A DNA stretch of 64,000 bases from a virus. How positions within the stretch are numbered: position 1 is the first letter of the stretch; each line of letters starts with the position of its first letter. Where the stretch lies: the IMG/VR virus record IMGVR_UViG_3300020416_000001, positions 64,001 through 128,000 of that record. One strand, 5' to 3'. This document shows positions 3 to 26,091 of this stretch, in pieces. The notes under the pieces are model-generated. The model made no database searches, was not told where the DNA came from, and worked only from the letters and a program-made list of their open reading frames with translations. The translations under genes were made by a program, and so were the position numbers.

Positions 3-1016
3 GAATACCCATCTGGTACGTTTGCGTACTTTATGTCGATTCACGATGATCTTTCTGATAATAGAACTTTCGTTGTCACCGTCTCAGCAGAAGATGATGG
101 CAACAAATACAGACTTGATGGCGTTTTATATCCTGACATAACTCTTACCAAGGGTTCTACTTACATATTTGATCAAAGTGACTCTTCAAACGCCACACAC
201 AATCTTCGACTCTCAGCAACCCTAAACGGACCTTGGAATCTGGGAACCGAATACACTGACGGAGTAACTTATGAAGGAACTCCAGGTCAGGCAGGTGCTA
301 GGACTATAATTACAGTTCCTCAAGATGCTCCTGCAAATCTATATTATTATTGCCAAAACCATTCAGGTATGGCAAATAATGCAGTCGGTACTGTGATTGC
401 AGATATGAGTTATGAACCTAAGTTTCCATTCATCTTTGGACTTGTTTCAAAAGAACAGGTAAATGTTCCTGCCAACCAAGGTATTCAACAGGAGCAGCAA
501 TCAGGTGGTGGTGGAGACCAAGGTGGTGGAGATGAACCAGACCCACCATCTCTCGTGATCAGTAACCAACCAACTAATGCAACCATTGCTAACGGTGGAA
601 CTCAAACGTTCTCTGTTCTAGCAGAGGTTCAACCACAAGCAGGAACTATTAACTACCAGTGGCAGGTCTCCACTGATGGTGGTTTTGCTTGGTCCAATAT
701 CACTGGTGCAACATCTTCAACTTATCAGATTGTCGCACTATCTTTTATGACTGGATATAGATATAGAGTAGTGCTAACAGGTCCCATTGGTGAACCTCAA
801 CAAGCACAGAACTCTCCTCTATCATCTAACCTTGCTATCCTAACCGTTACTGGTGGTACCAGTGGCGAAGATACATCAGGTGTTTTGAAATGGGATAGTA
901 CCGTTGGACGTTATGATATGACTTCCGTTCCGTTTGACAGGGATAATAACAATCCTGGTTTCACAACGAACACTATAAGATTTGACCAAACCAATTATGA
1001 GTTCGACCTCACATAA
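3..1016 (+). CDS. 5'-truncated virion protein: YHYH-like C-terminal part, inserted cupredoxin-like module, Ig-like domain
   Basis: Frame is open from the window edge (EYPSGTFAYFM...PKFPFIFG). Contains YYCQNHSGM and an Ig-like stretch ISNQP...YQWQ...YRYRV. Confidence 0.65.
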   Translation, partial: EYPSGTFAYFMSIHDDLSDNRTFVVTVSAEDDGNKYRLDGVLYPDITLTKGSTYIFDQSDSSNATHNLRLSATLNGPWNLGTEYTDGVTYEGTPGQAGARTIITVPQDAPANLYYYCQNHSGMANNAVGTVIADMSYEPKFPFIFGLVSKEQVNVPANQGIQQEQQSGGGGDQGGGDEPDPPSLVISNQPTNATIANGGTQTFSVLAEVQPQAGTINYQWQVSTDGGFAWSNITGATSSTYQIVALSFMTGYRYRVVLTGPIGEPQQAQNSPLSSNLAILTVTGGTSGEDTSGVLKWDSTVGRYDMTSVPFDRDNNNPGFTTNTIRFDQTNYEFDLT

Positions 1017-1019
1017 ATA
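1012..1019 (+). promoter_or_regulatory. T4-type late promoter
   Basis: CATAAATA ending 24 nt before the ATG at 1044. Confidence 0.7.
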
Positions 1020-1043
1020 AAACTGTAGAAAAACCCCACCGCT

Positions 1044-2720
1044 ATGGCTAAGCAAAATCTTAACATTGGTGTGTCAGCAAATGACGGCACTGGTGATACC
1101 CTAAGAGATGGTGCTATTAAACTCAATAACGTTATTAACGAGTTATATACCTTTCTGGGAGACAACACAAACCTACAAATTAGTGTCGGGAGTCCGTCAA
1201 CTAATCAGGTTCTAAAATGGAATGGTTCAGTATTCACTGAAGGTCAACTTTCTGTTTCTAATCTTACCGATATTGATGTTAGCGGTGTCAGTAACGGTCA
1301 AGTTCTGAAGTGGAACGAGGCAAACGCTCGTTGGCAAGCAGGGGATGATCTACAAGGTGGTGGAGGCGGTGGTTCTTCTATTACTAATTTGTCAAACAAC
1401 GGATCGGGTAACGTTGTTATCGACACACATTTCCTTCCTAACTCAGATGCAACATACGATCTGGGTTCACCCTCACTGAAGTTCAGAGACTTATACCTTG
1501 ATGAATCTACCCTTTGGATGGGTGACACAGGTATCTCTACTGACTCAGTAACACAAGAAATCAGTCGCAGAAAGAGAAAGGAGCACACTGTTAATAGTAT
1601 TGACACTGGTGCTACCCGTACTATTGCATCTAAACTCGCTTCCGAAGATTCTACACAGGAAGAGGCGTTTAGAACTAGGTTCTCAGCGATGAAAGGAGAC
1701 ACTAAGTTAGAGATCGAAGATGCCACTGGTGCTAAAGCGACGGTTACCTTCAACTCATTCACTGCTGAAAACGGTGGAGCACGTGGATATATAACAACAA
1801 CTGCTGTAGGTGCTAACCAATCACAAGAACTATCGGTTTCAAGTGCTGTTAAGATCACATCATATAACCGTGTGGTATCTGAGGATGAAGGTGGAAACAT
1901 CGAACTCGGTGGTCAGTCACTGAAGTTTGCTGCAGGTAAAGAACTTAAATTCGATGATGATGGAACACTTGAACTTCCTTCAAACTCTTCTATTCGTTTT
2001 GGTGATAGTGGCTCTACGAAGGTCATTGCTATGGACGGTAGCGGTAATTTGGACCTTGCTGTTGGTACTGACATTCGTTTTGGTGGCGATGCTGCTAAGT
2101 CAATCAAGTTTGATGGATCTGGTAACCTTGAAGTCCCAGACACTGCAGAAATTCGTTTCGGATCTGGCGGAACTAAGAAGATAAAATTTGACGGATCTAA
2201 TAACTTAGAACTTCCTGCATCTTCTGAGATCAAGATCGGTACTAAGAGAATGAAGATTGGTACCAATGGTGAACTTGAAGTTGCAAATGATGGTACTAAC
2301 TTTACTGAAGTTGGTGGTGGATTCCAGTCACAGGTCAACAGTGCTCCTGTTGGATCATCAATCATCAAGGGTGCAGGTACATCGGGCACGGTACATAAAC
2401 CTTCACCTACAATCTTGTTCAGATTTACTGCAGTTGGATCTTCCAGTTACACAGTAAACGGACCAGGATTGCCTTCAGGTGGTGCTGCTGATGCTACTTT
2501 GGTTCTCTATCGTGGATTTACATATGACTTCCACAACCAAGCAGGGGGTGCACACCCACTAGCAATCAGAACTTCATCTGGTGGTTCTACATACACAACT
2601 GGTGTTAGTGGTTCCAACACAGGAATCCAAACATTCACCGTACCGATGGATGCACCTAACACTCTTTATTATCAGTGCACCATTCATAGTGGAATGATTG
2701 GAACCCTCGATATAAGGTAA
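1044..2720 (+). CDS. baseplate/fibre-connector protein with gp9/gp10-like N-terminus, ~25-aa repeats and C-terminal cupredoxin-like domain
   Basis: MAKQNLNIGVSANDGTGDTLRDGAIKLN is the T4 gp9/gp10 N-terminal motif; the protein ends LYYQCTIHSGMIGTL. Confidence 0.75.
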   Translation: MAKQNLNIGVSANDGTGDTLRDGAIKLNNVINELYTFLGDNTNLQISVGSPSTNQVLKWNGSVFTEGQLSVSNLTDIDVSGVSNGQVLKWNEANARWQAGDDLQGGGGGGSSITNLSNNGSGNVVIDTHFLPNSDATYDLGSPSLKFRDLYLDESTLWMGDTGISTDSVTQEISRRKRKEHTVNSIDTGATRTIASKLASEDSTQEEAFRTRFSAMKGDTKLEIEDATGAKATVTFNSFTAENGGARGYITTTAVGANQSQELSVSSAVKITSYNRVVSEDEGGNIELGGQSLKFAAGKELKFDDDGTLELPSNSSIRFGDSGSTKVIAMDGSGNLDLAVGTDIRFGGDAAKSIKFDGSGNLEVPDTAEIRFGSGGTKKIKFDGSNNLELPASSEIKIGTKRMKIGTNGELEVANDGTNFTEVGGGFQSQVNSAPVGSSIIKGAGTSGTVHKPSPTILFRFTAVGSSSYTVNGPGLPSGGAADATLVLYRGFTYDFHNQAGGAHPLAIRTSSGGSTYTTGVSGSNTGIQTFTVPMDAPNTLYYQCTIHSGMIGTLDIR

Positions 2721-2724
2721 TTAA

Positions 2725-4596
2725 ATGCCAAGAACAGTACCTGGAAGTGGAGCGATTATTGAACCTATCTTTAACTCTATATTCGGAGTAAGAGAGGTTT
2801 ATGTAATAGATGGTGGAAACGGATACAACTCATCCGATCCTCCACAACTCAAAGTCGGTAACTGTGGTACCCCAATTAGAGAAGCAGTATTGCAACCTAT
2901 CATTAGTAACGGTCAAATTGCTTCTGTACGAGTTTTGGATCCTGGCGAAGGGTACGATCCATTCAGAATTGAATTAGAAACAGAAGGAGACGGTCACGGT
3001 GCAGTTGCTAAGGCAATCTTGTATGAACAGGATGAACTTGCACCTGATGGTACTATCATTGCTCCTGCAGGTTCTATTCAATACATACAAGTTTTGTCTA
3101 ACGGTGATGAATACTACTCATCTCCCACGACTGCCGAAGTAAAAGGTGGTGGTGGATCTGGTGCTGAACTTCGTCCTGTTGTTGGTCTTGTTACTGGTTT
3201 GTCTTTGGAAAACCAAGGATCAAACTATGAGTTGGGAGACATCAACTTAGTTGTCTCTGGTGGCGGGGGGCAAGGTGCAACTGGCGTTGCTGAGGTGGAT
3301 GAATTTGGCGTTGTCAAATCTATCGACGTCTCCAACGTTGGTGAGTTTTACGAAACTGCACCTACTATCCTACTTAACGGTGGTGGTGGATCTGGTTCTG
3401 TTGCGAAAGCAAATATTGATCTAGGTTCTATTACATCAATCGATGTTATCAACCCTGGTGGTGGATACTCGTCTGCACCCTCTGTCTTGTTCACAAGAAA
3501 CACTGACTTGACTAAAGAGTCAAGAAACCGTCAATCATTTAACTCTAATCTCTATAACATATCTGGTCTACTTGCAGACGTAGACGAGAATGATCAAACC
3601 ATTTATGTACAAACAACTGCTCCTTATCCTGGTTCAGGCAAAATTCTTATCGGTCGAGAAGTTATCCGATATACGGGTAAAACACTTACCTCCTTCACTG
3701 GTTGCGACCGTGCTCTCAATTTCCGATATGATCAAAAGGTAACTGTTGATTCTCTAGCAGACGTAAATGGTGTCTCGGGTTATAACTTTAACGTTGGAGA
3801 CAGAGTTATTAGAACTACAGAAAGTTCTAGTAATAAGATTGCTAGAGTGTATGACTGGATCCCATCACAAAGGGCACTCTTCCTCGTGTTTGAGGTTGAC
3901 GAACTTGCATTTATTGATGGTGGATCGTCACAAGTTAAGTCGCAGGTTATTGACTTTTCTGGTGGTGTTGCTTCAGCATCTGCAACTGGTGTTGAACCTC
4001 ACGTACTAATTGATCTTGCTGATGCACAGATCATAACCTTGACTGTTCCTATTAGTTTCATTCAAGATAAAGCGTTTGAAGATGATGATGAAGCAAGTGG
4101 TGCAGGTGATGGCATACCTGATTTGGTAAATACTAATACTGACTTTGAAGGAGAGATCAACCTTGACGGTGGAATTTCTTCTTCACTTTATGGTATTGAA
4201 GAAACTGTTGGTGGTACTAATACCACTTTGTTTGCGATTGGAGATCAAATGACTGATGGTTCCAATCCTCCACTATCTCCCACAGTGTCTCTAGCAGGAG
4301 AACTTGGAGATGGTGATGTGCATCCTGCCTTGGTGCAATTCCAAATGCGTAGTACCAATCCTGAGAATGGAAACTTTACAGTTTCAGAAACTGTTACAGG
4401 ATCCATTACTGGTATTACTGCTACTGTGAAGTCTTGGGACAATGCAACCAAGATATTGATAGTTGAAAATGTAGTAGGTAATTCAGGCAACTTCCTTTGG
4501 AATAACAACGAAACTGTTACTGGCGGTTCGACAGGAACAGTGGGCACACCACTGAGAATTGAGTATCTCTCATACCTCAGAAACGAACCCGACTAA
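2725..4596 (+). CDS. baseplate wedge protein (cyanophage gp7-like)
   Basis: Repeated I-x-V-x-N-x-G-x-GY...P...GGGG-x-GA units; lies directly before gp8. Confidence 0.6.
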   Translation: MPRTVPGSGAIIEPIFNSIFGVREVYVIDGGNGYNSSDPPQLKVGNCGTPIREAVLQPIISNGQIASVRVLDPGEGYDPFRIELETEGDGHGAVAKAILYEQDELAPDGTIIAPAGSIQYIQVLSNGDEYYSSPTTAEVKGGGGSGAELRPVVGLVTGLSLENQGSNYELGDINLVVSGGGGQGATGVAEVDEFGVVKSIDVSNVGEFYETAPTILLNGGGGSGSVAKANIDLGSITSIDVINPGGGYSSAPSVLFTRNTDLTKESRNRQSFNSNLYNISGLLADVDENDQTIYVQTTAPYPGSGKILIGREVIRYTGKTLTSFTGCDRALNFRYDQKVTVDSLADVNGVSGYNFNVGDRVIRTTESSSNKIARVYDWIPSQRALFLVFEVDELAFIDGGSSQVKSQVIDFSGGVASASATGVEPHVLIDLADAQIITLTVPISFIQDKAFEDDDEASGAGDGIPDLVNTNTDFEGEINLDGGISSSLYGIEETVGGTNTTLFAIGDQMTDGSNPPLSPTVSLAGELGDGDVHPALVQFQMRSTNPENGNFTVSETVTGSITGITATVKSWDNATKILIVENVVGNSGNFLWNNNETVTGGSTGTVGTPLRIEYLSYLRNEPD

Positions 4597-4602
4597 AACC
4601 CT

Positions 4603-4610
4603 CATAAATA
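4603..4610 (+). promoter_or_regulatory. late promoter
   Basis: CATAAATA before gp8. Confidence 0.7.
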
Positions 4611-4632
4611 AAGAGAAGGTAGAAATTGTCCA

Positions 4633-6168
4633 ATGGCACTACTTACTGACCAATTTAGAATTTTTACTGCGGAAAAATTCATCAAATCACTGGAAGGTCC
4701 TGACAAAAATCAGTCAGACATCGCGGCTGGTGTAAATAGGGATCGTCTATATGTGTACATTGGACGTCCTCAAGAATGGGATAACGAGAACAACCCTCCG
4801 ACTCCTGTAGATTCTTTTCAGGAATTTTCTGACTCCTTCGATGATATGATCTCGATGAAGCGTGTTCTTGCGAACGACGCTGTTCAGGTTATTCGTCGTA
4901 TTGACTGGATCCCACCCGAACAAACCACTGGTGGTTTGGGTTATGTGTACGATATGTATCGTCACGATTATAGTTCCAGTAAAACTGCATCTTCTGGTGC
5001 TACTAAACTGTACGACGCTGATTTTTACGTTGTTAACTCATCGTATCAAACTTATAAATGCATTTACAATGGTACATCCCCCTCTGACCCGAACGGAAAA
5101 CCTTCTACGGTTGAACCTACAGGTACTTCGACTTCAATTATCACTACTGCTGATGGTTATCGTTGGAAGTATATGTACACAATTCCTGTTGGACAGGTTC
5201 TAAAGTTCTTCTCAGGCGACTATATGCCTGTGTTGGTTGATACTGCTGTGGTATCTGATGCTGTGGGTGGTGAGATTGACACTGTTGTTATCCAATCTGC
5301 AGGTTCTGGATACAACAACGGTACATATGAAAACATCCCCATCAAGGGTGATGGTACTGGTGGAAGAATATCTGTTGTGGTTGACGGTGGTCGTATCGTC
5401 TCTGCTACTGTAACTTCTGGTGGTGCAAACTACTCCTTCGGTAAAGTTATTATTGACGAGATCAACGGTATCGGTTCTGGTACTGGATCTGGTGGTGCTA
5501 TCGATGTGATCATTCCTCCTAAAGGTGGACACGGTTCAGGTCCACAAATTGAGTTAGGTGGATTCCGTGTAATGATCAACACCAAGTTCACATACGATGA
5601 AGGTTCTGGAGATTTCCCAACTGACAACGATTACCGTCGTATCGGTTTGGTTCTCAACCCTCTGAAGTTTGGAACTGAAGAATTGGCAGACGCTATTACT
5701 TTGTCTGCTACTAACGCTGTGATTTTCTCGCCCGATTTCACAGGTTCATTTAATACTGACGAAATTATTACTCAAACTCGTACTGTTGGTGGTCAGCAAG
5801 TGACTGCTAGAGGACGAGTTGTGTCTTGGAACTCCACAACAAAGGTTCTGAAGTATTACCAAAACAGAGTCGATGGTATCTTCCCTGAGATCTCTGGTAA
5901 TAAAACAGTCTTTGACGGTGGTAACACTGTTGTTGGTTCAGGTTCTGGTACTTCTGCCGACCCTGATATTAACTTCCCTATTGTTCCTGGTGAAGCGACT
6001 CGTGTTATTAACAACACTGAGTATGACCTAGGTATGTCATTCACATCTGGTTACGCCAAACCCGAAGTGAAAAAAGACTCTGGAAAAGTGATCTACATAG
6101 ACAATAGGAGAGCAATCTCTCGTGCAGGCGACCAAATTGAAGACATCAAGATCGTAGTAGAGTTCTAA
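4633..6168 (+). CDS. gp8: baseplate wedge subunit gp8
   Basis: YVYIGRPQEW, VIRRIDW, YKCIYN, DGYRWKYMY, C-terminal IYIDNRRAISRAGDQIEDIKIVVEF. Confidence 0.9.
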   Translation: MALLTDQFRIFTAEKFIKSLEGPDKNQSDIAAGVNRDRLYVYIGRPQEWDNENNPPTPVDSFQEFSDSFDDMISMKRVLANDAVQVIRRIDWIPPEQTTGGLGYVYDMYRHDYSSSKTASSGATKLYDADFYVVNSSYQTYKCIYNGTSPSDPNGKPSTVEPTGTSTSIITTADGYRWKYMYTIPVGQVLKFFSGDYMPVLVDTAVVSDAVGGEIDTVVIQSAGSGYNNGTYENIPIKGDGTGGRISVVVDGGRIVSATVTSGGANYSFGKVIIDEINGIGSGTGSGGAIDVIIPPKGGHGSGPQIELGGFRVMINTKFTYDEGSGDFPTDNDYRRIGLVLNPLKFGTEELADAITLSATNAVIFSPDFTGSFNTDEIITQTRTVGGQQVTARGRVVSWNSTTKVLKYYQNRVDGIFPEISGNKTVFDGGNTVVGSGSGTSADPDINFPIVPGEATRVINNTEYDLGMSFTSGYAKPEVKKDSGKVIYIDNRRAISRAGDQIEDIKIVVEF

Positions 6169-6172
6169 AACA

Positions 6173-9100
6173 ATGCCTCAGAATACCAATCTGAATATCG
6201 CCCCTTATTTCGACGATTTCGATAAGGCGAATAATTTCTACCGAGTGCTATTCCGCCCTGGGTATCCTATCCAAGCTCGTGAACTGACGACGCTTCAATC
6301 TCTGATGCAAAATCAGGTTGAATCGTTTGGTACACATATGTTCAAGGATGGCAGTATGGTCATCCCTGGTCAGATTGGTTACGACCTCGACGCCAAAGCA
6401 GTTATCCTGCAGGGGTCATTCTTGGGTGCTGATGTTGAACAATATAGAGATCAGATTACAGGTACTATTGTCGAAGGTTTGACAACTGGTATCAAGGCAA
6501 AAGTTTTATTCAGTATTTCTTCTACTGAATCAGAGCGTGGTTATATCACTTTATACGTTAAGTATTTGACATCTGGTGGTGAAGATAGTGACACCAGACA
6601 ATTTGTAAATAACGAGCAGTTGATCTGTGCTTCAGAAATTACTTTCGGTTCATCTCTAATTGAGATCGGAACTCCTTTTGCACAGTTACTTCCAACTAAC
6701 TCTACTGCTGTAGGTTCTACTGCAGCGATAGCACAAGGTGTCTATTTTATTAGAGGACACTTTGTAGATGTTAATGCTCAAACTATTATTCTAGATCAAT
6801 ATACAAACAACCCTTCATATAGAATCGGTCTAGAAATTTTTGAATCTATTGTTACTCCTGAAGATGATCCTAGTCTAAATGACAATGCAACTGGTACGTC
6901 TAACTACTCTGCTCCTGGTGCTCATAGGTTTAGAATCAGGACTTCCCTCGTCAAGAAGGTTATTGATGATGACACCGACAAGAACTTCATCGAACTTTTA
7001 AGAATTAACAAATCTCAAGTTGAGTCATTTGTTGAGAGAACTGCATATAACGAATTAGAAAAAGAACTTGCTAGAAGAACCTTTGACGAATCAGGTGACT
7101 ATACTGTTCGTGATTACGATGTTCGTGTTAGAGAACACTTGAACGATGGTTCTAACGGTGGTGTTTATCTCCCTGGTGAGAATTCACCTGCAGGACTTGG
7201 AGCATCTTCTGCACACTATGCTGTTGAGATTGGACCTGGTAAGGCATACGTTAGAGGTTTTGAGTCTGAGACTCTTGTTCCTACATTCATTGACTTAGCA
7301 AAACCAAGAGATACTCTTGCTTTACAGAACTCAATCATTCCGTTTGAGTTGGGTCAGTATATGTTGATGAGTAATGTGAAGGGATCACCTATCATCAACG
7401 GTAACAATATTACTGCTAACTATCAGGTTATTGAGTTTAGAGATCAATTCCAGAATGGTAACCTCTCTAGTCAAGGACAGATTGTTGCACTTGGTCGTAT
7501 CGCTGCATACGAATATCATAGTGGTACTACTGTTAACTCAACTAACACAGTTTTCAAGGCATACATTTTCGATCTACAACCTCTAACAATCTTCAAGACC
7601 GATGCTGCCGTTACACTTACTCAAGGTCACGTTATCAGAGGACGTACTTCTAAAGCAAAAGCATTTGTTGAAGGCGATGTTAGTGGCGGACAAATCTTCA
7701 ATGTTTATCAGGTTTATGGTACATTCCGAAATGGGGAGATACTTGAGCGTGATGGTATTGAAATCGGTACTCTAAACGATCACTTCTCGTTTGAAGTTAC
7801 AGATGCTCGTTCAATGATCGGTAGAGATCCAGATACAAATAATATTAGATTTGCAGGTGACCTTCTAACTGATGCTCAAGTTGTAATTGTTGGTACAAAC
7901 TTCAATCTTAGTTCTGGTGGTGCTACTGGTACATTGACTGGTACACAGTCTAACTTTACCTTGGACATCAGACCTAATGACATCTTTACACAGAATGGAA
8001 CTAATAGTCTGTTAATTGACAGGATTAGCACCATCTCAGGTAATATTGATAATAAGATCACAACTGCTACAACTGCTAGTTACTCTGGTAACAACATTGC
8101 TGCAGGAGATTATGGATTCTTAGTTAGATTGCGTCCACAAATCTATGATAGAGAAACTGCTGACCTTATGATCGAGATGCCTAAGGAATCTATCAACCAG
8201 ATTTCTGACGAATCTTGTATCGTTGCACGTTCTTTTGACGACATCACAGTTACAGGTGCTAATGACTTTACGATCTCACTACCTGCTGACGAACAGTTCC
8301 TTGCATATGATAAGGATCATTATCAATTAGTATCTCTTGCACCTACCCCAGGTACATTGATTGACATTGAATCAAGTCTTGCATTTAACAGCACTGGTAC
8401 ACCTAGAACTTCACTGACTGTTTCTGGTCTAACTGGTGTTACATCTTGTCGTTTGATTGCTTCTATCTCTAAGAACCAAGCAGAGAAGAAGTTGAAGAAT
8501 GCTACACAGATGGAAGTTATGAAGGTTGAGAGAACCAGTAACTCATCTGATAGCGTCAAGTATGGTCTTGCATACGGTTCATTGTATGGTACTCGTATTG
8601 AAGATGAAGAGATCTCACTTGGATCTACAGACGTTTATAATATTCACGCTATCTACGAATCAGTTGATAACAATCCTGCAGTAATTCCTAACTTGCAGAT
8701 GCAAGATGCAACTATCTTCAAGGAAGGTACTGTTATTGAGGGACAGACATCTAAAGCAAAAGCACGTGTTGTAAACTTCAACGCTGTATCATATATCTGT
8801 CATTTTGTTTATGAGAATGATCAGTTCTTCCAGTTAGGTGAAACTGTTCGTGGTTTTGATGCTAATGATGAGGTTATCACAGGTCTAATTAACGATGCTG
8901 AAGGTAGTATCAATAATGGATCTAGGAACATTACTTCCGATTACTTCCTCGATCCTAACCAGAAGGGTCACTTCTACGACATTTCTAAACTAATTCGTTA
9001 TGCATCATCAACTAAACCTCTAAGAAAATTGATGATTGTGTTTGATAGGTTCACTCACGAAGCAACGGGTGACTATTTTGCAGCACAATCTTATGTTGGT

Positions 9101-12100
9101 ATTGACTATGGTAGGATCCCATCATTTACAGAGAATGGTATTACCAAAGAGTTGAGAGATGTTCTTGACTTTAGACCTGCTGTTACTCCTGTTCTTTCAG
9201 GATCTGGTACTGTTGGATCACCTTATTATGTAAACTGTGCATCACTTGACTTCAAAGATAGAGGATTCTCCTCTGGTGGTGTTGCAAACAATGCTACGGT
9301 TATTGATATTCCAAAACCTGAGTCTGACTTCCGTTGTGACTATGACTATTACCTTGGTAGAGTTGACAAATTATTCCTAACTAATCAGCAAGAATTTAAG
9401 ATTGCTAAAGGTATCTCTGGTGAAAACCAAGAACTTCCTGCAGATATGGATAATGCAATGTTGCTTGCAACATTCTTCCACAAACCATATGGTTACAGTC
9501 CTGACGATGTAAGAATCTCTAGAGAGAACAACCGTAGATTCACTATGCGTGACATCGGTAGAATTGAAAAGAGAGTTGATAACCTTGAGTATTACACATC
9601 TCTAAACCTTCTTGAGATGGAAACTGCATCATTCTCTGTTAAGGATGCTGATGGTTTCGATAAGTTCAAGAATGGATTCCTAGTTGATAACTTTACATCA
9701 TTCGATTCTGCTCAAACTGTACACGAAGACTTTGCTTGTGCTCTTGACTTCAGAGAAGGCATCTTAAGAGCAGCACATTATACAACAAACGTTTCTCTTG
9801 AGTATAACGATACTGCATCGACAGATATGACTAATCATTCTGTTGGTACATTGACTCTTCCATACAATGAGATTCAGTTTATTGTTCAACCATATGCATC
9901 AAGAGTTGAGAATGTAAACCCATTCAACGTGTTTGCTTATATCGGTAGATTGGATCTATTCCCATCATCTGATGACTGGGTAGCAGAAGAAAGAGAACCA
10001 GATAGAGTTGTTAACATTGAAGGTGACTTTACTGCAAGAGTTCAAGCACTTGGTGGTGATAGCAACACAGGTTTCGTTCCTACACAGTGGAACTCTTGGA
10101 GAACTAACTGGTCTTCTAGCAGCACTTCATCTTCATCTCAGTTTATGAGAAGAGGTCACTGGCCGTTCATTAGAAGAATCAATACAAATACTACTACCAC
10201 AGTTTCATCACAATCTAGAACTGGTATTAGAACTAACGTTGTTCCTAGGATTGACCGTCAGTCTCTTGGTGACAGAGTTATTGAGCGTACAGTTATTCCG
10301 TTCATTAGATCAAGAAACATTGCATTTAAGATTCAGCGTCTGAAACCAAACACTAGATTCTATGCATTTATTGACAATGTTAATATTAATTTCTACACAA
10401 CTCCTAGATTGTTAGAAGTTATTAAGAATCCTATTGATGATACAAGAACAAACAACACTCCTTTTGTTGTAGGAGAAACAGTTGTTGGACAAACATCAGA
10501 TTGTCATTTGAAGTTGATGGATCCTAACGTTGGATTCGATGATGATATTAACCCATTTGATAGCAGTGAACTACCTAGTTCTTATGCATCAACAACCCCT
10601 CTCTTGAACATTGACACTAAGATTATGTCAGAGACGGTTGCAGGTCAATACTACGGTAACCCTCTAGAAGGTGAGATCCTTGTTGGTCAAACCTCTGGTG
10701 CTCGTGCTGTTGTTAAGACTAAGCGTCTCGTTGCAAACACTAACGGTGACCTAGAAGGTATTATCTGGATTCCTAATCCTGGTGTTGATACCAACCCAAG
10801 ATTTGCTACAGGTACAAGAGTTGTCAGACTAACAACATCTGCAACTGACTCTAGAGTTCCAGGTCAGGTTGACTCTGCAGCATCTGCAAACTACGTTGCA
10901 TCTGGTGTTATTGAGACTAAGCAAACAACTATCCTTGCTGTTAGAAACGCTGACATCGTTAGAGACACAGTTACTCAAGGTAGAACTGTTAATAGTTCTA
11001 GCACATCTACAAGAGACACAGGTTGGTATGACCCTCTTGCTCAATCATTCTTGGTTGAGTCTAAGGGTGGTGCATTCTTGACTGGTGCTGAACTGTACTT
11101 CAATACTAAGGATGAGAGAATCCCAGTATCTGTACAGGTTAGAGAGATGGCAAATGGTTATCCAACCACTAAAGTTCTTGCATTCTCTGACGTTACACTT
11201 CTTCCTTCACAGATTAACCTTTCTGAGAATGGAACAGTCTCTACTAAGTTTACATTCCCATCACCTGTATATGTGACAGAGAATAGAGAGTATTGTTTGG
11301 TTGTTCTTTCTGACTCAAACGAATACAAACTCTGGATCTCCAGAATGGGTGAAGACGATATTACAAACGATAGAACGATCTCTGAGCAACCATATGCAGG
11401 TGTGCTCTTCAAATCACAGAACGCTTCTACTTGGACTGCTGACCAGTATGAGGATCTTAAGTTTATCCTTCATAAGGCAGAGTTTACGATGAATAAAGTA
11501 GGAACTGCAGTATTCAACAACTCAGAACTTGCTCTTGGTAATGGTGGTATCAGCAGATTGCGTCACAATCCTATTGAAACACTGAAACCACAACTTAAGA
11601 TTATCCTTTCTGATCACATTGCTAACTTCACAATCGGTGCTGAGATTACTCAGACTGATACTAACCCAGTTCCTTCTGCTATTGTTCGTGAAGTTGTACA
11701 AGGTATCTCAGGTTCATCTAACGCTTACATCATTGTTGATGATGTTCAGGGTGAATTCAGGGAAGGTGTTGCATCTGGTGCAAACTACATCTATAGATTA
11801 GTATCATCTAGATCTATCGCTAACCTTACACTGACTGGTGTCACAGGTACATTCCAAGTTGATGAGACAATCACCAATGGTAGTGGTGCCTCTGGTATGG
11901 TTACTGCATTCAATGCAGGTACAGGTGTCCTAACTGTTAAGTCGGTCACTGGTACATTTAACGCTGCCGATCCTATTACACAAACTGTCGGTGGTTCAAC
12001 TGTTGGATCAGGTACGGTTGCATCTGGTGGTGTTGCACTTTCTGGTGATGACATCAATGATTATCCTGCTGCTCCAATCTCATACTTCAACAGAGCGACT

Positions 12101-13384
12101 GAAGTAACAGTGCATCACGCAAACCACTGTATGCACGATGCTGCTAACAACGTTAATATTACAGGCGTTATCTCAGAAGTTGCTCCTACAATTATTGACT
12201 CTGCATACCATACAAACGGTATCACTGCATCTGATGGTGTCTCAGGTACATTCCAGTTACACGTACAAGATGCATCTGCATTCCACTCTCTAGTGAATGG
12301 TACTCAAGTATCTACTAGTAACCCTGGATATATTATTCTTCGTGACCCTGACATCGGTCAGAAACACTTTGAGATTATTCAATATAATAACATCTCTGAT
12401 GATGGTAAGATCTTAACACTTCCTTCAGGTTCTCGTGGTCAGGCAGGAACTGGTGCTCTGGTTCACAACGCCAACACTATTGTTGAATGTTACAACCTAG
12501 ATGGTATTCCTCTAGTTGAGATCAACAAACTTCATACACAAATCGGTTCACCTACACTTGATACTTACAAGATTGCAGTCACATCAGTTTCTAGCAATGG
12601 TATTAGAAACGGTGGATCAAGAGTTACATCAACGCAGAACATCCAGTTTGAGCAGTTCTATCCTCAGATTCAGATGACTGTATATCCTGAAACTGATGTT
12701 GATCCTAGAATCAACGTTGTATCTGCTACTTCTCTAAGAGATGGTGCTAATACAGATGAAGCATCATTCATTAATGACGGTGTATTCATCGATTGTATCG
12801 CTAACGAAGACAACTACCTTGGATTCCCCAAGATGGTTTGCTCACAAGTTAACGAAGATGCAAAACTATCTGGTTCTAAATCACTGAACTTCCAGTTATT
12901 GATGAGCACAAACAACAAGAACTTGTCACCAATCGTTGACCGTGATCGTTGTTCAATCATCACAACTTCAAATAGAATCAATGAAATCCCTGCTGCTAAC
13001 TCTAATGCAGAAGATAGAACAGGTGATCTCAATAGTGCAGTCTACATCACCAAAGTGATCAACTTGCTTCAACCTGCTAACTCCTTGAGAGTTGCATTCG
13101 AAGCGTGGCGACACCCTGACACCGAAATCCACGTAATGTATCGTACGATGCCAGTGGGTACCTCATTAACCTTTGATGAGATCGGTTATACATATTTCAA
13201 CGGTAACGGAAAGGAAGACAAAACTGTGCCTAAGACAGAAGGGATTCTGTACCGAGACCTTGAATATACCAATGAGGGAACAGAGTTTAGTTCTGCACAG
13301 ATCAAAATTATTATGGTCTCCAAGAATCAAGCGTACGTTCCTGAAATCAAGAACCTCCGTGTAATGGCATTAAGTGACCTCTAA
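6173..13384 (+). CDS. large VrlC-like (DUF4815-type) virion/baseplate protein
   Basis: MPQNTNLNIAPYFDDFD...RVLFRPG..QARELT, LARRTFDESGDY, RFTMRDIG..EKR...LEYYTSL, DPLAQSF motifs; 2403 aa. Confidence 0.85.
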   Translation: MPQNTNLNIAPYFDDFDKANNFYRVLFRPGYPIQARELTTLQSLMQNQVESFGTHMFKDGSMVIPGQIGYDLDAKAVILQGSFLGADVEQYRDQITGTIVEGLTTGIKAKVLFSISSTESERGYITLYVKYLTSGGEDSDTRQFVNNEQLICASEITFGSSLIEIGTPFAQLLPTNSTAVGSTAAIAQGVYFIRGHFVDVNAQTIILDQYTNNPSYRIGLEIFESIVTPEDDPSLNDNATGTSNYSAPGAHRFRIRTSLVKKVIDDDTDKNFIELLRINKSQVESFVERTAYNELEKELARRTFDESGDYTVRDYDVRVREHLNDGSNGGVYLPGENSPAGLGASSAHYAVEIGPGKAYVRGFESETLVPTFIDLAKPRDTLALQNSIIPFELGQYMLMSNVKGSPIINGNNITANYQVIEFRDQFQNGNLSSQGQIVALGRIAAYEYHSGTTVNSTNTVFKAYIFDLQPLTIFKTDAAVTLTQGHVIRGRTSKAKAFVEGDVSGGQIFNVYQVYGTFRNGEILERDGIEIGTLNDHFSFEVTDARSMIGRDPDTNNIRFAGDLLTDAQVVIVGTNFNLSSGGATGTLTGTQSNFTLDIRPNDIFTQNGTNSLLIDRISTISGNIDNKITTATTASYSGNNIAAGDYGFLVRLRPQIYDRETADLMIEMPKESINQISDESCIVARSFDDITVTGANDFTISLPADEQFLAYDKDHYQLVSLAPTPGTLIDIESSLAFNSTGTPRTSLTVSGLTGVTSCRLIASISKNQAEKKLKNATQMEVMKVERTSNSSDSVKYGLAYGSLYGTRIEDEEISLGSTDVYNIHAIYESVDNNPAVIPNLQMQDATIFKEGTVIEGQTSKAKARVVNFNAVSYICHFVYENDQFFQLGETVRGFDANDEVITGLINDAEGSINNGSRNITSDYFLDPNQKGHFYDISKLIRYASSTKPLRKLMIVFDRFTHEATGDYFAAQSYVGIDYGRIPSFTENGITKELRDVLDFRPAVTPVLSGSGTVGSPYYVNCASLDFKDRGFSSGGVANNATVIDIPKPESDFRCDYDYYLGRVDKLFLTNQQEFKIAKGISGENQELPADMDNAMLLATFFHKPYGYSPDDVRISRENNRRFTMRDIGRIEKRVDNLEYYTSLNLLEMETASFSVKDADGFDKFKNGFLVDNFTSFDSAQTVHEDFACALDFREGILRAAHYTTNVSLEYNDTASTDMTNHSVGTLTLPYNEIQFIVQPYASRVENVNPFNVFAYIGRLDLFPSSDDWVAEEREPDRVVNIEGDFTARVQALGGDSNTGFVPTQWNSWRTNWSSSSTSSSSQFMRRGHWPFIRRINTNTTTTVSSQSRTGIRTNVVPRIDRQSLGDRVIERTVIPFIRSRNIAFKIQRLKPNTRFYAFIDNVNINFYTTPRLLEVIKNPIDDTRTNNTPFVVGETVVGQTSDCHLKLMDPNVGFDDDINPFDSSELPSSYASTTPLLNIDTKIMSETVAGQYYGNPLEGEILVGQTSGARAVVKTKRLVANTNGDLEGIIWIPNPGVDTNPRFATGTRVVRLTTSATDSRVPGQVDSAASANYVASGVIETKQTTILAVRNADIVRDTVTQGRTVNSSSTSTRDTGWYDPLAQSFLVESKGGAFLTGAELYFNTKDERIPVSVQVREMANGYPTTKVLAFSDVTLLPSQINLSENGTVSTKFTFPSPVYVTENREYCLVVLSDSNEYKLWISRMGEDDITNDRTISEQPYAGVLFKSQNASTWTADQYEDLKFILHKAEFTMNKVGTAVFNNSELALGNGGISRLRHNPIETLKPQLKIILSDHIANFTIGAEITQTDTNPVPSAIVREVVQGISGSSNAYIIVDDVQGEFREGVASGANYIYRLVSSRSIANLTLTGVTGTFQVDETITNGSGASGMVTAFNAGTGVLTVKSVTGTFNAADPITQTVGGSTVGSGTVASGGVALSGDDINDYPAAPISYFNRATEVTVHHANHCMHDAANNVNITGVISEVAPTIIDSAYHTNGITASDGVSGTFQLHVQDASAFHSLVNGTQVSTSNPGYIILRDPDIGQKHFEIIQYNNISDDGKILTLPSGSRGQAGTGALVHNANTIVECYNLDGIPLVEINKLHTQIGSPTLDTYKIAVTSVSSNGIRNGGSRVTSTQNIQFEQFYPQIQMTVYPETDVDPRINVVSATSLRDGANTDEASFINDGVFIDCIANEDNYLGFPKMVCSQVNEDAKLSGSKSLNFQLLMSTNNKNLSPIVDRDRCSIITTSNRINEIPAANSNAEDRTGDLNSAVYITKVINLLQPANSLRVAFEAWRHPDTEIHVMYRTMPVGTSLTFDEIGYTYFNGNGKEDKTVPKTEGILYRDLEYTNEGTEFSSAQIKIIMVSKNQAYVPEIKNLRVMALSDL

Positions 13385-13598
13385 AGAATTCATTCCCGTG
13401 AAAGGACATCCCGATTTAGTTCGGGATTCCGAATCGAAAGCGGTACTAAATACAAAACCGACTCCCCCTGGAAACGCTGCTAAGAAGCGTAAACAAAGGG
13501 ATGATACTATCGATAACTTGAAATCTGACGTAGATGTGCTAAAATCAGATATGTCGGAAATCAAATCCTTACTGAAAACATTATTGGAGCAACGCTAA
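13374..13598 (+). CDS. small conserved hypothetical protein with coiled-coil C-terminus
   Basis: VKGHPDLVRD motif; coupled to the VrlC-like gene. Confidence 0.7.
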   Translation: MTSKEFIPVKGHPDLVRDSESKAVLNTKPTPPGNAAKKRKQRDDTIDNLKSDVDVLKSDMSEIKSLLKTLLEQR

Positions 13599-13828
13599 TG
13601 CCCGCTGATCAAACTGAAACAGTTGACCAAGAGAAACTTCTTGGAGATTTCAAAGACCGCTACAAGCGTCTTATTGAAGATAATCAAAGAATGGCAAAGA
13701 TCATTCGTAATAATGAACAACAAGCACTTAAACTACAAGGTGCTATTGAAACTCTCGAATATTGCCTCGGAAATGGGGAAGAAGAAGCAGAAGCACCACC
13801 CGAAGTGGACAACGTGGACGCTGCATAA
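13598..13828 (+). CDS. hypothetical coiled-coil protein
   Basis: TAATG overlap with the previous gene; LKLQGAIETLE motif. Confidence 0.7.
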   Translation: MPADQTETVDQEKLLGDFKDRYKRLIEDNQRMAKIIRNNEQQALKLQGAIETLEYCLGNGEEEAEAPPEVDNVDAA

Positions 13829-13833
13829 TCCCT

Positions 13834-13858
13834 GGACCCGAAAGGGTCCTCTTTTTTT
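13834..13858 (+). terminator. Rho-independent terminator
   Basis: GGACCC-GAAA-GGGTCC followed by TCTTTTTTT. Confidence 0.9.
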
Positions 13859-13861
13859 GCG

Positions 13862-13869
13862 TATAAATA
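13862..13869 (+). promoter_or_regulatory. late promoter
   Basis: Exact TATAAATA. Confidence 0.85.
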
Positions 13870-13920
13870 TTCCGAGAGGCATTTTCTGTCCGTTATCGGA
13901 TACCCCACGTGTGTTAAACA

Positions 13921-16900
13921 ATGGCAAATAGAATCCAATTAAGACGTGATGGTGCTCAGCAGTGGGCAAACATCAATCCAATCCTTGCACAAGGTGAACT
14001 AGGAATCGAAATCGATACTTCACGTATCAAAATCGGTGACGGTGTTACCCCTTGGAACTCATTGAAATATGAGCGACCATTGGAGACGGAATCAAACGCT
14101 GCAAATACGCTTGTCAAGAGAGACGCTGACGGTAACTTCCAAGCAGGTGCTGTCACGGCGACGCTAATCGGTAATGCCTCAACTGCCACTAGACTCTCTA
14201 ACGCACGTCAAATACAATTAGCAGGACAGATTACTGGATCAGGTTCTTTTGATGGATCTTCTAACCTGACACTTAATACTGATCTGTCTCTGATCACAAC
14301 TCTGCCTCACTACGATCCCGCTAACCCTAGTGCTGAATCAACTTATACTAGAGTTAGGGTTAACTCACAAGGTCGTGTGGTGGGTGCTGAACTTGCTTCT
14401 ACATTAGCAGACTATGGTATCACTGATGCTCAGGCATTGGATGATGACCTTACATCACTTGCACAACTTACGAACGTTGGTATTCTTGTTCGTGCATCGC
14501 AAGGAAATATTATAACCAGACAGTTAACTGGTGGTGGAGGAAGAATTATATTTACAGTTCCTGACGGAACATCACAGAACCCATTCATCGATCTTGCTGA
14601 TACTGCTGTCGTTGTTGGATCATACAATACTGAATCCCTGACATCTGTCACTGGTAATGCTTCTAGCGAGACTGTAAACGCAACTAAATTTACAGTTGAC
14701 AGATATGGTCGTTTGACTGCTGCGTTGACTGTGCCTATTGCCACAGCAACAGAAGGATCTAAGTATGCAGTTTACGATGCAGGTACACCATATAATAGAT
14801 ACGATATTATTGAGAATGCAAGCAACGTTTATCAAGCGATTGCTGATATTGCAGCAGCACAAGGTGCTCCTACACATTCTACTGAGACTATAACTTATGC
14901 TGTTACTGTAAATGCAGAACCAGATGGAAATAAGTATTACTTAGATGGATCAATCTATCCTAATCTAACATTCAAGAGAGGAAGTACATATATCTTCAAT
15001 CAGGATGATGCTTCTAACGTTCTTCATCCGTTGCACTTTAGTGAAACATCTAATGGCACACACGGCGGTGGATCCGTCTATAATGTAGGAGTTACCTATA
15101 AACTTGATGGTGTAGTAGTATCATACTCTGATTACTACGATACTACCAACTTTACCAACGCAACAACACGTCAGGTAGAGATTGTAGTACCAAGAAATGC
15201 ACCTAAGTTGCTACATTACTATTGCTACTACCATTCTGGTATGGCAAACAATGCGTACATTGATGTTGTACATAGCGACTCTGGAAACTGGAGATGGTTG
15301 AACCCTGTTGCTGTTGAGCAAAAAGGACTAGCATCTTTTGCACAAGAAGACTTTGACGTCGATGGTAATGGACACGTTGTTATCGCTGCTAGTTCAGTGG
15401 ACAACACACAACTGCAGAATAATGTAGTTGGATTCGCAGATGGTAACACGGTCGAAACTTTTGAACTTGATAACGAACTCACTCCCACATCGGGATACAG
15501 AGGATTTAACTACTTAAACTATGTCAAAATTAACGATACTTCAGGGAATCTGTTATTCTCTGCTAATAATACTGGCGACTCTGGTAGTGGAGAGATTGAT
15601 ATTAATGTAAGGTCATATTATAGTGACCCTGACATTACACTGGATGGTACCGTAAATCAAACACTTGACAAAACAGGTGACGGTAACTTAACATTCCAAA
15701 CTACACAAGACAGTACATCTGATAGAGATCTTAATATTCTTGCTACTAACGCAGGATCTGGATCCTCTAACATTAAGATTACTGCCGAAGATACTGTACA
15801 GATCAATGCATCTGCAGGATCAGGTAAAATTTGGATCGAAGATGCCAGACTTCAAGACAACTACATTGCTACGACTAATTCAACTCTTAACCTTGACCCA
15901 GGTGATGACAGAGCAAACACTGGTACAGTCCGAGTTTGGGGTGACCTACAAGTCGATGGAACAACAACGACTGTTAACAGTACGACTGTTACTATTGATG
16001 ACCCTATCTTTACCCTTGGTGGAGACACTACACCTGTATCCGATGATGGATTAGATCGTGGTATTGAGTTCAAATACTATGACACTCAAGCAAGAATCGG
16101 TTTCTTTGGATGGGACGAAGATCTAACACGTCTTGATTCTGGAACTGGTGGTTATGCATTCCTTTATAATGCAACAAATAGTAGTGAGACATTTACTGGA
16201 ACTGACGCTTACATCAAGGCAGGTGCTCTTTCCTTAACCACAAACACTGGATCTACATCAACTACTACAGGTACACTTGTAGTTACTGGTGGTGTTGGCA
16301 TCTCAGAGAATGTTCACGTTGGTGGAGAGGTTACAGTTGCAGGTCAGACAGAAATTAATGACACCGTTCTTATCAAGTCTGATAACGAAGACTTTAAGAT
16401 TCAGACTGGAGCAGGTGTAGATAAGTTTACAGTTGATACTGACACAGGTAACACAGTTATCGAAGGTACTCTTGATGTACAACTCGAAACTACAGTTACT
16501 GACAACCTAATCGTTCAAGCAGATAACAAGAAGTTTGAAGTTAAGTCTGCTAACGGTACATCCAAGTTTGATATTGATACAGATAATGGTAACACCCACA
16601 CAGATGGTACGCTTGATGTTGATGGAGGAGTAACATTCAACAGCACTCTCGATGTTGATAACAATACAACATTGAATGCTGAGTTGGATGTTGATGGTAA
16701 TTCAACCTTCCACAATAATATTCTTCTCGATACAACTGGCAAGACGCTGACCATTACAAATGGTTCTACTAATAAGTTCCAAGTTACTAGCACAAATGGT
16801 AACACTGATATTGAAGGAACTCTAAACGTTGCTCAGTTTGTATATCTTGAGGATAACGATGTACCTACAATCTCTACTGACGGTAGCAATAACTTTGTTA

Positions 16901-25711: not shown

Positions 25712-25767
25712 CATATCTCGTAACGTCTTTTTGCAGCACAACTAGATAACTTAGTTGATCATTTTAT

Positions 25768-26091
25768 ATGAAGTTCATTCTGGCATTCTTTGCAACTCTG
25801 TTCTTGGCATTGCCAGTTTTTGCTGTCGATATTAATATGGGAGATGATGGAAAATTAGTTTTCCAACCTTCAGAGGTTACTATCTCTGCAGGTGAGACTG
25901 TTCATTTTTTGAACACTATGTTGCCTCCACATAATATTATAGTAGAATCACGTCCAGACCTTTCTAGGGAAGCACTTATGTTTAACCCAGGAGAGACTAT
26001 GGACATTACATTCCATACCCCAGGTGATTACGAATTCTTTTGTGCACCACATAGGGAAGCAGGAATGACAGGAACAATTCACGTAAACTGA
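25768..26091 (+). CDS. petE: plastocyanin
   Basis: Signal peptide; LVFQPS, PPHN, YEFFCAPHREAGM (His, Cys, His, Met copper ligands). Confidence 0.95.
   Translation: MKFILAFFATLFLALPVFAVDINMGDDGKLVFQPSEVTISAGETVHFLNTMLPPHNIIVESRPDLSREALMFNPGETMDITFHTPGDYEFFCAPHREAGMTGTIHVN

What the first reader, a model, noticed from the sequence alone, without database searches (positions are those of the whole stretch)
63..15270. Type-1-copper (cupredoxin-like) module in three virion proteins: a possible copper-decorated tail
Seen: the same ~100-aa module occurs at about 63-398 (H...YYCQNHSGM), 2420-2717 (HP...YQCTIHSGM) and 14881-15270 (HP...YYCYYHSGM). All three keep an upstream His plus C-x2-H-x2-M. Known: this is the type-1 Cu ligand set with amicyanin loop spacing (plastocyanin has C-x2-H-x4-M). 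Inference: the baseplate and fibres display many Cu sites. These could bind a Cu/plastocyanin-related host receptor (a copper analogue of the iron 'Ferrojan horse' idea), act as a redox trigger, or scavenge metal. The same phage also carries petE.
Basis: partly seen in the sequence, partly recalled or inferred. Interest (0 to 1): 0.8.

Follow-up and report, generated by a model that had tools for sequence, protein, structure and literature searches.

The report
Blue-copper-type domains on cyanophage tail proteins
Three tail and baseplate proteins of this marine cyanophage each carry a small domain with the predicted fold and all four metal-binding residues of blue copper proteins such as plastocyanin, so the virus particle probably displays bound copper, which nobody has yet tested.

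Summary
Three homologous modules of about 105 aa lie at window 63-398, 2397-2717 and 14881-15270. Each keeps an upstream His plus C-x2-H-x2-M.

- **Fold:** an AlphaFold2 model (pLDDT 97) matches almost only cupredoxins in two independent structure searches.
- **Selection on the ligands:** all 44 distinct gp9-like orthologues keep the four residues, even though the loop varies between C-x2-H and C-x4-H. The ligand Cys is the only Cys in both the 558-aa and the 2088-aa carrier. Two further copies in the same genome have lost all ligands.
- **Family:** it is very large (7829 representative proteins) and has no Pfam model of its own. It occurs in tail fibres of marine phages, including phages of SAR11 and OM43, and in giant surface adhesins of marine bacteria.
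- **Consequence:** petE is present but is not detectably closer to the module than cellular plastocyanins.

Copper binding and its role are inferred, not shown. I found no paper describing this domain. This scan has already found and followed up the same module in at least eight other phage genomes, with the same conclusion.

The parts
63..398 (+). Cupredoxin-like module 1 (His at 198-200, Cys 351-353, His 360-362, Met 369-371). It is inserted in the last loop of a YHYH domain of a 586-aa virion structural protein (G000 63256-65013, window up to 1016).
   Evidence: AF2 model with pLDDT 97. Cupredoxin matches. YHYH PF14240 at 103 bits on residues 62-261. Insertion shown against the contiguous motif in the giant protein.
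1044..2720 (+). gp9-like baseplate wedge / tail-fibre connector, 558 aa. It carries module 2.
   Evidence: PF07880 T4_gp9_10_N at 40.3 bits against a cut-off of 25. phrog_677 at E 6e-69, and that profile includes the module. Its only Cys is C545.
2397..2717 (+). Cupredoxin-like module 2 at the C-terminus of the gp9-like protein (His 2553-2555, Cys 2676-2678, His 2685-2687, Met 2694-2696).
   Evidence: All 44 distinct orthologous C-termini keep the four ligands. Orthologues give sub-threshold PF00127 hits.
13921..20187 (+). 2088-aa fibre or structural protein with an Mtd_N N-terminal domain. It carries module 3.
   Evidence: PF18454 Mtd_N at 47.7 bits against a cut-off of 26.3. phrog_697 at E 8e-217. 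Its only Cys is C435.
14881..15270 (+). Cupredoxin-like module 3, with an insertion of about 15 residues (His 15025-15027, Cys 15223-15225, His 15232-15234, Met 15241-15243).
25759..26091 (+). petE, a true plastocyanin with a C-x2-H-x4-M loop. It is in the same phage but shows no specific relationship to the module and is not part of the virion feature.
   Evidence: No significant similarity to the module.

Best explanation
**What it is.** The three modules belong to a very large subfamily of the cupredoxin (blue copper) superfamily that has no Pfam model of its own. The subfamily serves as a portable, surface-exposed domain of tail fibres and baseplate proteins in marine phages, and of giant surface adhesins in marine microbes.

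**The metal site.** Each window copy keeps the complete type-1 ligand set. One His lies in the loop after strand 4, Cys lies at the end of strand 7, and His and Met lie in the short loop before the last strand.

**Inference.** Because these residues are selectively maintained, the domain most likely holds a metal ion. Copper is the best candidate, since Met thioether together with Cys thiolate and two His is a copper-specific set. The metal would lock the ligand loop and stabilise an exposed domain that makes contacts, either with the host surface or with other virion parts such as the fibre socket on gp9.

**Shown versus inferred.** Shown here: homology of the copies, predicted fold, ligand positions, their conservation, and the distribution of the family. 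Inferred: metal occupancy, metal identity, and the role in adsorption or assembly.
For: **Fold.**
- AF2 with an 84-sequence alignment gave pLDDT 97 and pTM 0.89.
- The top Foldseek PDB hits are nearly all cupredoxins at probability about 1.0 and E 3e-3 to 1.6e-2. They include the nitrite reductase cupredoxin domain, AcoP, plastocyanin, rusticyanin and pseudoazurin.
- An independent all-against-all VIA search gave Z 7.9 to 5.3, and most of the 50 listed entries (about 45) are cupredoxin folds, among them amicyanin, azurin, auracyanin and CuA domains.

**Ligand positions.** They fit cupredoxin topology in the DSSP string. They align column for column with the plastocyanin ligands in a global hhalign, P 0.0023.

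**Sequence bridge to Pfam.**
- Multi-repeat relatives P0006 and P0008 pass the PF00127 gathering score.
- The L169 and L170 domains pass PF00127 and also hit the module HMM at 32-34 bits.
- Five of ten gp9-like orthologues give end-to-end PF00127 hits of 13.8-16.3 bits.
- The ESM Atlas names one viral cluster 'Blue (type 1) copper domain-containing protein'.

**Selection.**
- 211 of 249 ungapped copies keep H-C-H-M, and losses are mostly of several ligands at once.
- 44 of 44 gp9-like orthologues keep all four residues although the loop length varies.
- The ligand Cys is the sole Cys in the 558-aa and 2088-aa carriers, and the ligand-less 638-aa fibre has no Cys at all.

**Exposed or contact role.** The module lies at the C-terminal tips of gp9-like, T7-type and collagen-like fibres. 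It also sits beside lectin and Ig-like domains in giant adhesins.
Against: - No metal-binding data exist, and the model coordinates could not be read, so ligand geometry was not measured.
- Structural scores are middling (best Z 7.9, Foldseek E about 3e-3).
- The window's single modules do not reach any curated copper-protein threshold.
- Virions assemble in the cytoplasm, where type-1 copper proteins are not normally loaded. This rests on established knowledge of copper trafficking.
- Ligand-less copies in the same genome show that the fold can serve in fibres without a metal.
- The top-150 sample and the pattern-based locus scans are biased toward ligand-bearing copies.
Confidence: 0.6

Rival explanations
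1. The module is metal-free in the virion. It would be a cupredoxin-derived beta-sandwich used like the Ig-like decoration domains of phages, for weak adhesion or as a spacer. The ligand residues would then be conserved for packing of the loop or as part of a binding face, not for copper.
For: Ligand-less copies coexist in the same genome and within the same multi-repeat proteins. Carrier 1 also has an Ig-like domain, and the adhesins carry lectin and Ig domains. Cytoplasmic assembly makes copper loading uncertain, from established knowledge.
Against: All four residues are retained together in 44 of 44 orthologues despite changes in loop length. Losses tend to be of several ligands at once. 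A lone exposed Cys and a conserved Met are hard to explain without a metal.
Confidence: 0.25
2. The copper centre is functional beyond stability. It could be a redox or copper-status sensor that gates baseplate triggering, or a copper-loaded bait recognised by a host uptake system, as a copper version of the Ferrojan-horse idea put forward by the first reader.
For: The site sits on host-contact machinery: the gp9-like fibre socket and a long fibre. Type-1 sites are redox-active by nature, from established knowledge. The Ferrojan-horse concept is discussed in papers found.
Against: No partner, receptor or redox chain is evident. The module occurs in phages of unrelated hosts and in bacterial adhesins, so there is no specific link to cyanobacterial copper or plastocyanin biology. 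Nothing in the sequence tests this idea.
Confidence: 0.1
3. The site binds a metal other than copper, for example Zn(II) acquired in the cytoplasm, and acts purely as a structural clip.
For: Cupredoxins expressed in the cytoplasm are often zinc-loaded, from established knowledge. Virions fold in the cytoplasm.
Against: The Met position is 93% conserved, and Met is not a typical Zn ligand. Secreted adhesin homologues fold outside the cell.
Confidence: 0.05

Closest known systems
Amicyanin (type-1 blue copper protein; NCBIfam TIGR02657; PDB 1aac)
   Same: Cupredoxin fold (VIA Z 5.3). His...C-x2-H-x2-M ligand spacing, the shortest natural type-1 loop (established knowledge).
   Different: There is no significant sequence match: 12.2 bits against a cut-off of 110.2. 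Amicyanin is a soluble periplasmic electron carrier with a defined partner. This module is embedded in virion and adhesin proteins, usually has Pro rather than Asn after the first His, and has a longer middle region with a short helix.
Plastocyanin / Pfam PF00127 Copper-bind, including this phage's own petE
   Same: Same fold and same four ligand types, with ligands in register in hhalign. Multi-repeat relatives and bridge sequences pass PF00127.
   Different: Plastocyanin has a C-x2-H-x4-M loop. The window's modules do not reach the PF00127 threshold. petE is not detectably similar to them.
N-terminal cupredoxin domain of three-domain copper nitrite reductase (PDB 6tfd, 6tfo, 2dv6) and the purple cupredoxin of Nitrosopumilus (5fc9)
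   Same: These are the best structural matches: Z 7.9 and 7.2, rmsd 2.6-2.9 A over 92-94 residues, with Foldseek probability 1.0.
   Different: Sequence identity is 12-16%. Those domains are parts of redox enzymes. Nothing here suggests an enzyme or an electron-transfer partner.
Ig-like decoration domains of phage structural proteins (for example Hoc-type domains)
   Same: A small beta-sandwich module, shuffled among tail, fibre and baseplate proteins, sometimes inserted into other domains, and presumed to be exposed.
   Different: The predicted fold is cupredoxin, not Ig. The module carries a conserved metal-ligand set, which Ig-like domains lack.
Metal sites of T4 fibres (Fe in gp37 His-x-His repeats, Zn in gp12), the basis of the Ferrojan-horse hypothesis
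   Same: Metal ions bound in phage host-recognition fibres (established knowledge; papers found).
   Different: Those ions sit on the trimer axis and are coordinated by His from three chains. Here the site lies within one chain and has blue-copper chemistry.

Membership tests
Cupredoxin superfamily (fold level) | Greek-key beta-sandwich of 7-8 strands | tested here: met
   AF2 pLDDT 97 with 9 strands and one short helix. Foldseek top hits are nearly all cupredoxins at probability about 1.0. In the VIA wide search most of the 50 listed entries (about 45) are cupredoxins, Z up to 7.9 over residues 1-112.
Type-1 (blue) copper site | His after strand 4, plus Cys, His and Met in the loop between the last two strands | tested here: met
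   H46, C97, H100 and M103 are invariant in A1 and A2. Their positions relative to the DSSP strands fit. They are in register with plastocyanin ligands.
Type-1 (blue) copper site | The four ligands converge within bonding distance, and Cu is bound (absorbance near 600 nm, small A-parallel in EPR) | not testable with these tools
   Model coordinates are not exposed to scripts.
Pfam PF00127 Copper-bind | Score at or above the gathering cut-off of 21.2 bits | tested here: not met
   The window modules give no hit at E<=1. A search of the phage's own genome finds only petE. Relatives P0006 and P0008 (23.5 and 22.3 bits) and L169 and L170 (33.7 and 26.3 bits) do pass. gp9-like orthologues score 13.8-16.3 bits.
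Amicyanin (TIGR02657) and plastocyanin (TIGR02656) equivalogs | Score at or above the curated cut-off (110.2 and 87.85 bits) | tested here: not met
   Module 2 scores 12.2 bits against amicyanin, and the other modules give nothing. petE alone passes the plastocyanin model.
T4 gp9/gp10 family (carrier of module 2) | N-terminal domain PF07880 above its cut-off, and a position in the baseplate gene cluster | tested here: met
   40.3 bits against a cut-off of 25. phrog_677 at E 6e-69. Flanked by genes matching baseplate-wedge PHROG families: phrog_708 (the reading as gp10-like is mine) and phrog_438 (gp8 per the records).
YHYH domain PF14240 (carrier of module 1) | Score above the cut-off of 25 bits | tested here: met
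   103 bits on residues 62-261, matching profile positions 11-181 of 193. The module interrupts the last loop.

The most novel reading that the evidence does not exclude
Marine phage virions, and giant adhesins of marine bacteria, carry genuine redox-active blue copper centres on their contact machinery. The copper would be functionally required, either for receptor binding or as a trigger that senses redox state or copper status. Ocean virus particles would then be a previously uncounted pool of protein-bound copper, and adsorption would depend on copper.
Probability: 0.15. Interest if true: 0.85.

Novelty: new variant of a known kind. Interest (0 to 1): 0.62.

Why it matters
If the sites are occupied, each virion would display many copper centres. 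T4 carries 18 copies of gp9 (established knowledge), so by analogy with T4 the gp9-like protein alone would give 18; this is an inference. That would be the first blue-copper chemistry described on a virus particle. It would also give a concrete, testable handle on how trace metals affect phage stability and adsorption in the ocean. The family is very large (7829 representative proteins at E<=1e-3) yet has no Pfam model and no literature that I could find. Naming it would improve the annotation of thousands of "hypothetical" tail-fibre and adhesin proteins. If the sites are empty, the family is still a clear case of a redox-protein fold recruited as a structural module.

Tried and rejected
- **Single-sequence AF2 of module 3** gave pLDDT 34 and was useless.
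- **Profile searches of PDB sequences** returned only antibody "YYC" noise and pseudoazurin at E 1.3.
- **hhalign of the alignment against petE alone** was not significant, although the N-terminal strands aligned sensibly.
- **The search for homologous proteins with the module at "near" lengths** returned only 4 proteins, because of the length window.
- **Derivation of the modules from the phage's petE** is rejected. The module HMMs score petE at E 0.06-0.17, lower than a cellular plastocyanin.
- **A cyanobacteria-specific function** is rejected because of the Pelagibacter and Methylophilales phages, the Marine Group II contigs and the Flavobacteriaceae and Photobacterium adhesins.
- **Literature searches** found no description of this domain. 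Terms tried: cyanophage + cupredoxin; cupredoxin + tail fiber + phage; plastocyanin-like + tail fiber; cupredoxin-like + bacteriophage + receptor-binding; cyanophage cryo-EM + copper. The P-SCSP1u cryo-EM paper did not resolve the distal fibre (PMC10575957).
Full report
**Setting.** The window is bases 64001-128000 of a 171.8-kb T4-like cyanomyovirus record estimated to be 94% complete. Its nearest isolates are Synechococcus and Prochlorococcus myoviruses at about 72% DNA identity over gp8. The region examined is the baseplate and fibre gene block:
- a 586-aa virion structural protein that starts upstream of the window;
- a gp9-like connector (1044-2720);
- a protein matching baseplate wedge subunit family phrog_708, which I read as gp10-like (2725-4596);
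- gp8 (4633-6168);
- a 2403-aa protein of unknown function;
- a 2088-aa fibre protein with an Mtd_N domain (13921-20187).

**Observation.** Translation shows the three modules exactly as described. The one correction is that the second module is in frame from 2421, not 2420.
- The modules are homologous: BLASTP gives E 4e-34 and 2e-9.
- They share 24 invariant columns, including H46, C97, H100 and M103.
- An HMM scan of all six frames finds no further copy in the window.
- The whole genome holds two more, degenerate copies. One is in a 638-aa tail fibre (G000 2181-4094). The other is in the 6921-aa giant baseplate protein (G000 42308-63070). Both have lost the ligands.

**Fold.** A single-sequence prediction failed. 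I then gathered domain copies from IMG/VR loci and short representative proteins and predicted module 1 with that alignment. The result was pLDDT 97 and pTM 0.89.
- Foldseek against the PDB returns almost only cupredoxins at probability about 1.0, although E is only 3e-3 to 1.6e-2 and TM is 0.5-0.6.
- The independent VIA search of 48,161 representative chains gives Z 7.9 for the cupredoxin domain of a nitrite reductase. Most of the 50 listed entries (about 45) are cupredoxin folds, including laccases, the purple cupredoxin, rusticyanin, auracyanin, plastocyanin, azurin, amicyanin and CuA domains.
- The Z values are middling in absolute terms. The uniformity of the list and the full-length coverage are what make the assignment secure.
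- BFVD shows the same domain, at TM up to 0.96, in dozens of phage proteins named tail fibre, structural protein or baseplate wedge tail-fibre connector. None of them is named as a copper protein.

**Ligand positions.** In the model, His46 lies in the loop before strand 48-51. Cys97 ends strand 92-97. His100 and Met103 lie in the loop before the last strand. This is the cupredoxin arrangement, from established knowledge.
- A global hhalign against three true plastocyanins puts all four ligands in register, with a two-residue gap in the loop (P 0.0023).
- I could not read the coordinates, so convergence of the ligands in 3D remains untested.

**Sequence link to copper proteins.** The window's single modules hit no Pfam or NCBIfam family, and a PF00127 search of the genome finds only petE. 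The link is nevertheless bridged in four ways.
- Multi-repeat relatives pass the PF00127 gathering score.
- Domains in a Flavobacteriaceae chromosome and in a Prochlorococcus SAG pass PF00127 and also match the module HMM at 32-34 bits. They show near-identical local motifs (HPF.IKT, YYYQC.VH.GM).
- Five of ten gp9-like orthologues give end-to-end sub-threshold PF00127 hits.
- The ESM Atlas labels one viral neighbour cluster "Blue (type 1) copper domain-containing protein".

**Selection on the site.**
- Among 249 ungapped domain copies from the 150 best representative proteins, 211 keep H-C-H-M. About a dozen others have a C-x2-H-x3-M loop. Most of the rest have lost several ligands at once.
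- Among the gp9-like orthologues fetched from IMG/VR, all 44 distinct C-termini keep His, Cys, His and Met. The loop is C-x2-H-x2-M in 29 and C-x4-H-x2-M in 15. Keeping the residues while the spacing changes is what a selected metal site predicts.
- The ligand Cys is the only cysteine in the 558-aa gp9-like protein and in the 2088-aa fibre. The ligand-less 638-aa fibre has none.
- These samples are biased toward ligand-bearing copies, because the seed profile and the scan patterns contain the motif. The orthologue set was retrieved with patterns taken from across the gp9-like protein: five lie outside the module and the sixth (FTYDFHNQ) lies inside it but contains no ligand.

**Distribution and context.** The family is very large: 7829 representative proteins at E<=1e-3 and 4115 at E<=1e-10, with up to 18 matched stretches per protein.
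- In isolate phages it occurs in 100 records. Most are cyanophages, but there are also Pelagibacter and Methylophilales phages, a T7-like cyanopodovirus and the siphovirus PSS2.
- In cellular assemblies it sits in three settings. One is giant surface proteins of Flavobacteriaceae and Photobacterium, beside DUF11, lectin and GEVED domains. Another is the C-terminus of collagen-repeat proteins on Marine Group II archaeal contigs. The third is the C-terminus of a T7-type tail fibre in a Pelagibacteraceae SAG.
- Module 1 is nested in the last loop of a YHYH domain. The flanking motifs are contiguous in the giant protein but separated by the module in the 586-aa protein.

The module is therefore a mobile, exposed unit, typically at distal or tip positions.

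**Mechanism.** I commit to a metal-stabilised, copper-type site in an exposed contact domain, with confidence of about 0.6.
- The metal is inferred from the copper-specific ligand set and from its conservation.
- The contact role is inferred from position. For the gp9-like protein the contact could be the fibre socket rather than the host, by analogy with T4 gp9.
- Loading is the weak point, because virions fold in the cytoplasm, where blue copper proteins are not normally metallated. The secreted adhesin homologues suggest that uptake outside the cell is possible.

The rivals are an apo adhesion or spacer domain (0.25), a redox or bait function (0.1), and another metal (0.05).

The fold and the ligand claims hold. 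The specific ideas of a plastocyanin-related receptor or a link to petE do not, given the host range of carriers and the lack of similarity to petE.

**Novelty.** I found no paper describing the domain. Earlier follow-ups of this scan reached the same conclusion on at least eight other phage genomes. Other first-stage notes on this genome mention the YHYH insertion. I tested the insertion here, and the ligand-less copy in the giant protein, reported for another genome, turned up independently.

Noticed in passing
L223-L235, L240, L241, L247 (C-termini of gp9-like orthologues): One clade of gp9-like proteins has a longer ligand loop, C-x4-H-x2-M (for example CGIPSHAAM), instead of C-x2-H-x2-M. 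All four ligands are still kept. This is a natural loop-length series for a type-1 site.
   Followed up: partly
G000 2181-4094 (L004:376-2289), outside the window: A 638-aa tail fibre (phrog_693) carries a copy of the module in which His, Cys, His and Met are all replaced. The protein has no cysteine at all.
   Followed up: partly
G000 42308-63070, just upstream of the window: A 6921-aa open frame, a giant baseplate protein, holds a YHYH motif with a contiguous C-terminal loop and a faint ligand-less remnant of the module near residue 2879.
   Followed up: partly
window 3-450 (586-aa protein, residues about 256-395): Module 1 is inserted in frame into the last loop of a YHYH domain (PF14240), between ...YFMSI and PKFPFI. 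The same motifs are 9 residues apart in the giant protein.
   Followed up: yes
L102, L106, L107, L110, L113-L116, L120-L123, L125, L127-L129, L141 (Marine Group II archaeal MAG contigs): Proteins of about 330-450 aa have collagen triple-helix repeats and a C-terminal ligand-bearing module (CQNH..M). They look like virus fibres, possibly from viruses or proviruses of Poseidoniales.
   Followed up: partly
L170 and L171 (one Flavobacteriaceae chromosome, at 458 kb and 1.95 Mb): Two proteins end in an identical PF00127-passing domain (HPFYIKT...YYYQCSVHNGM). It bridges the phage module and classical copper-binding proteins.
   Followed up: partly
window 6173-13384: A 2403-aa protein (phrog_358, unknown function, 14 Cys) lies between gp8 and the fibre gene. 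It has no Pfam-level clue.
   Followed up: no
window 555-830 (586-aa protein, residues about 434-526): An Ig-like domain that matches head and tail decoration families (phrog_613, phrog_3995) follows the cupredoxin module in the same protein.
   Followed up: no
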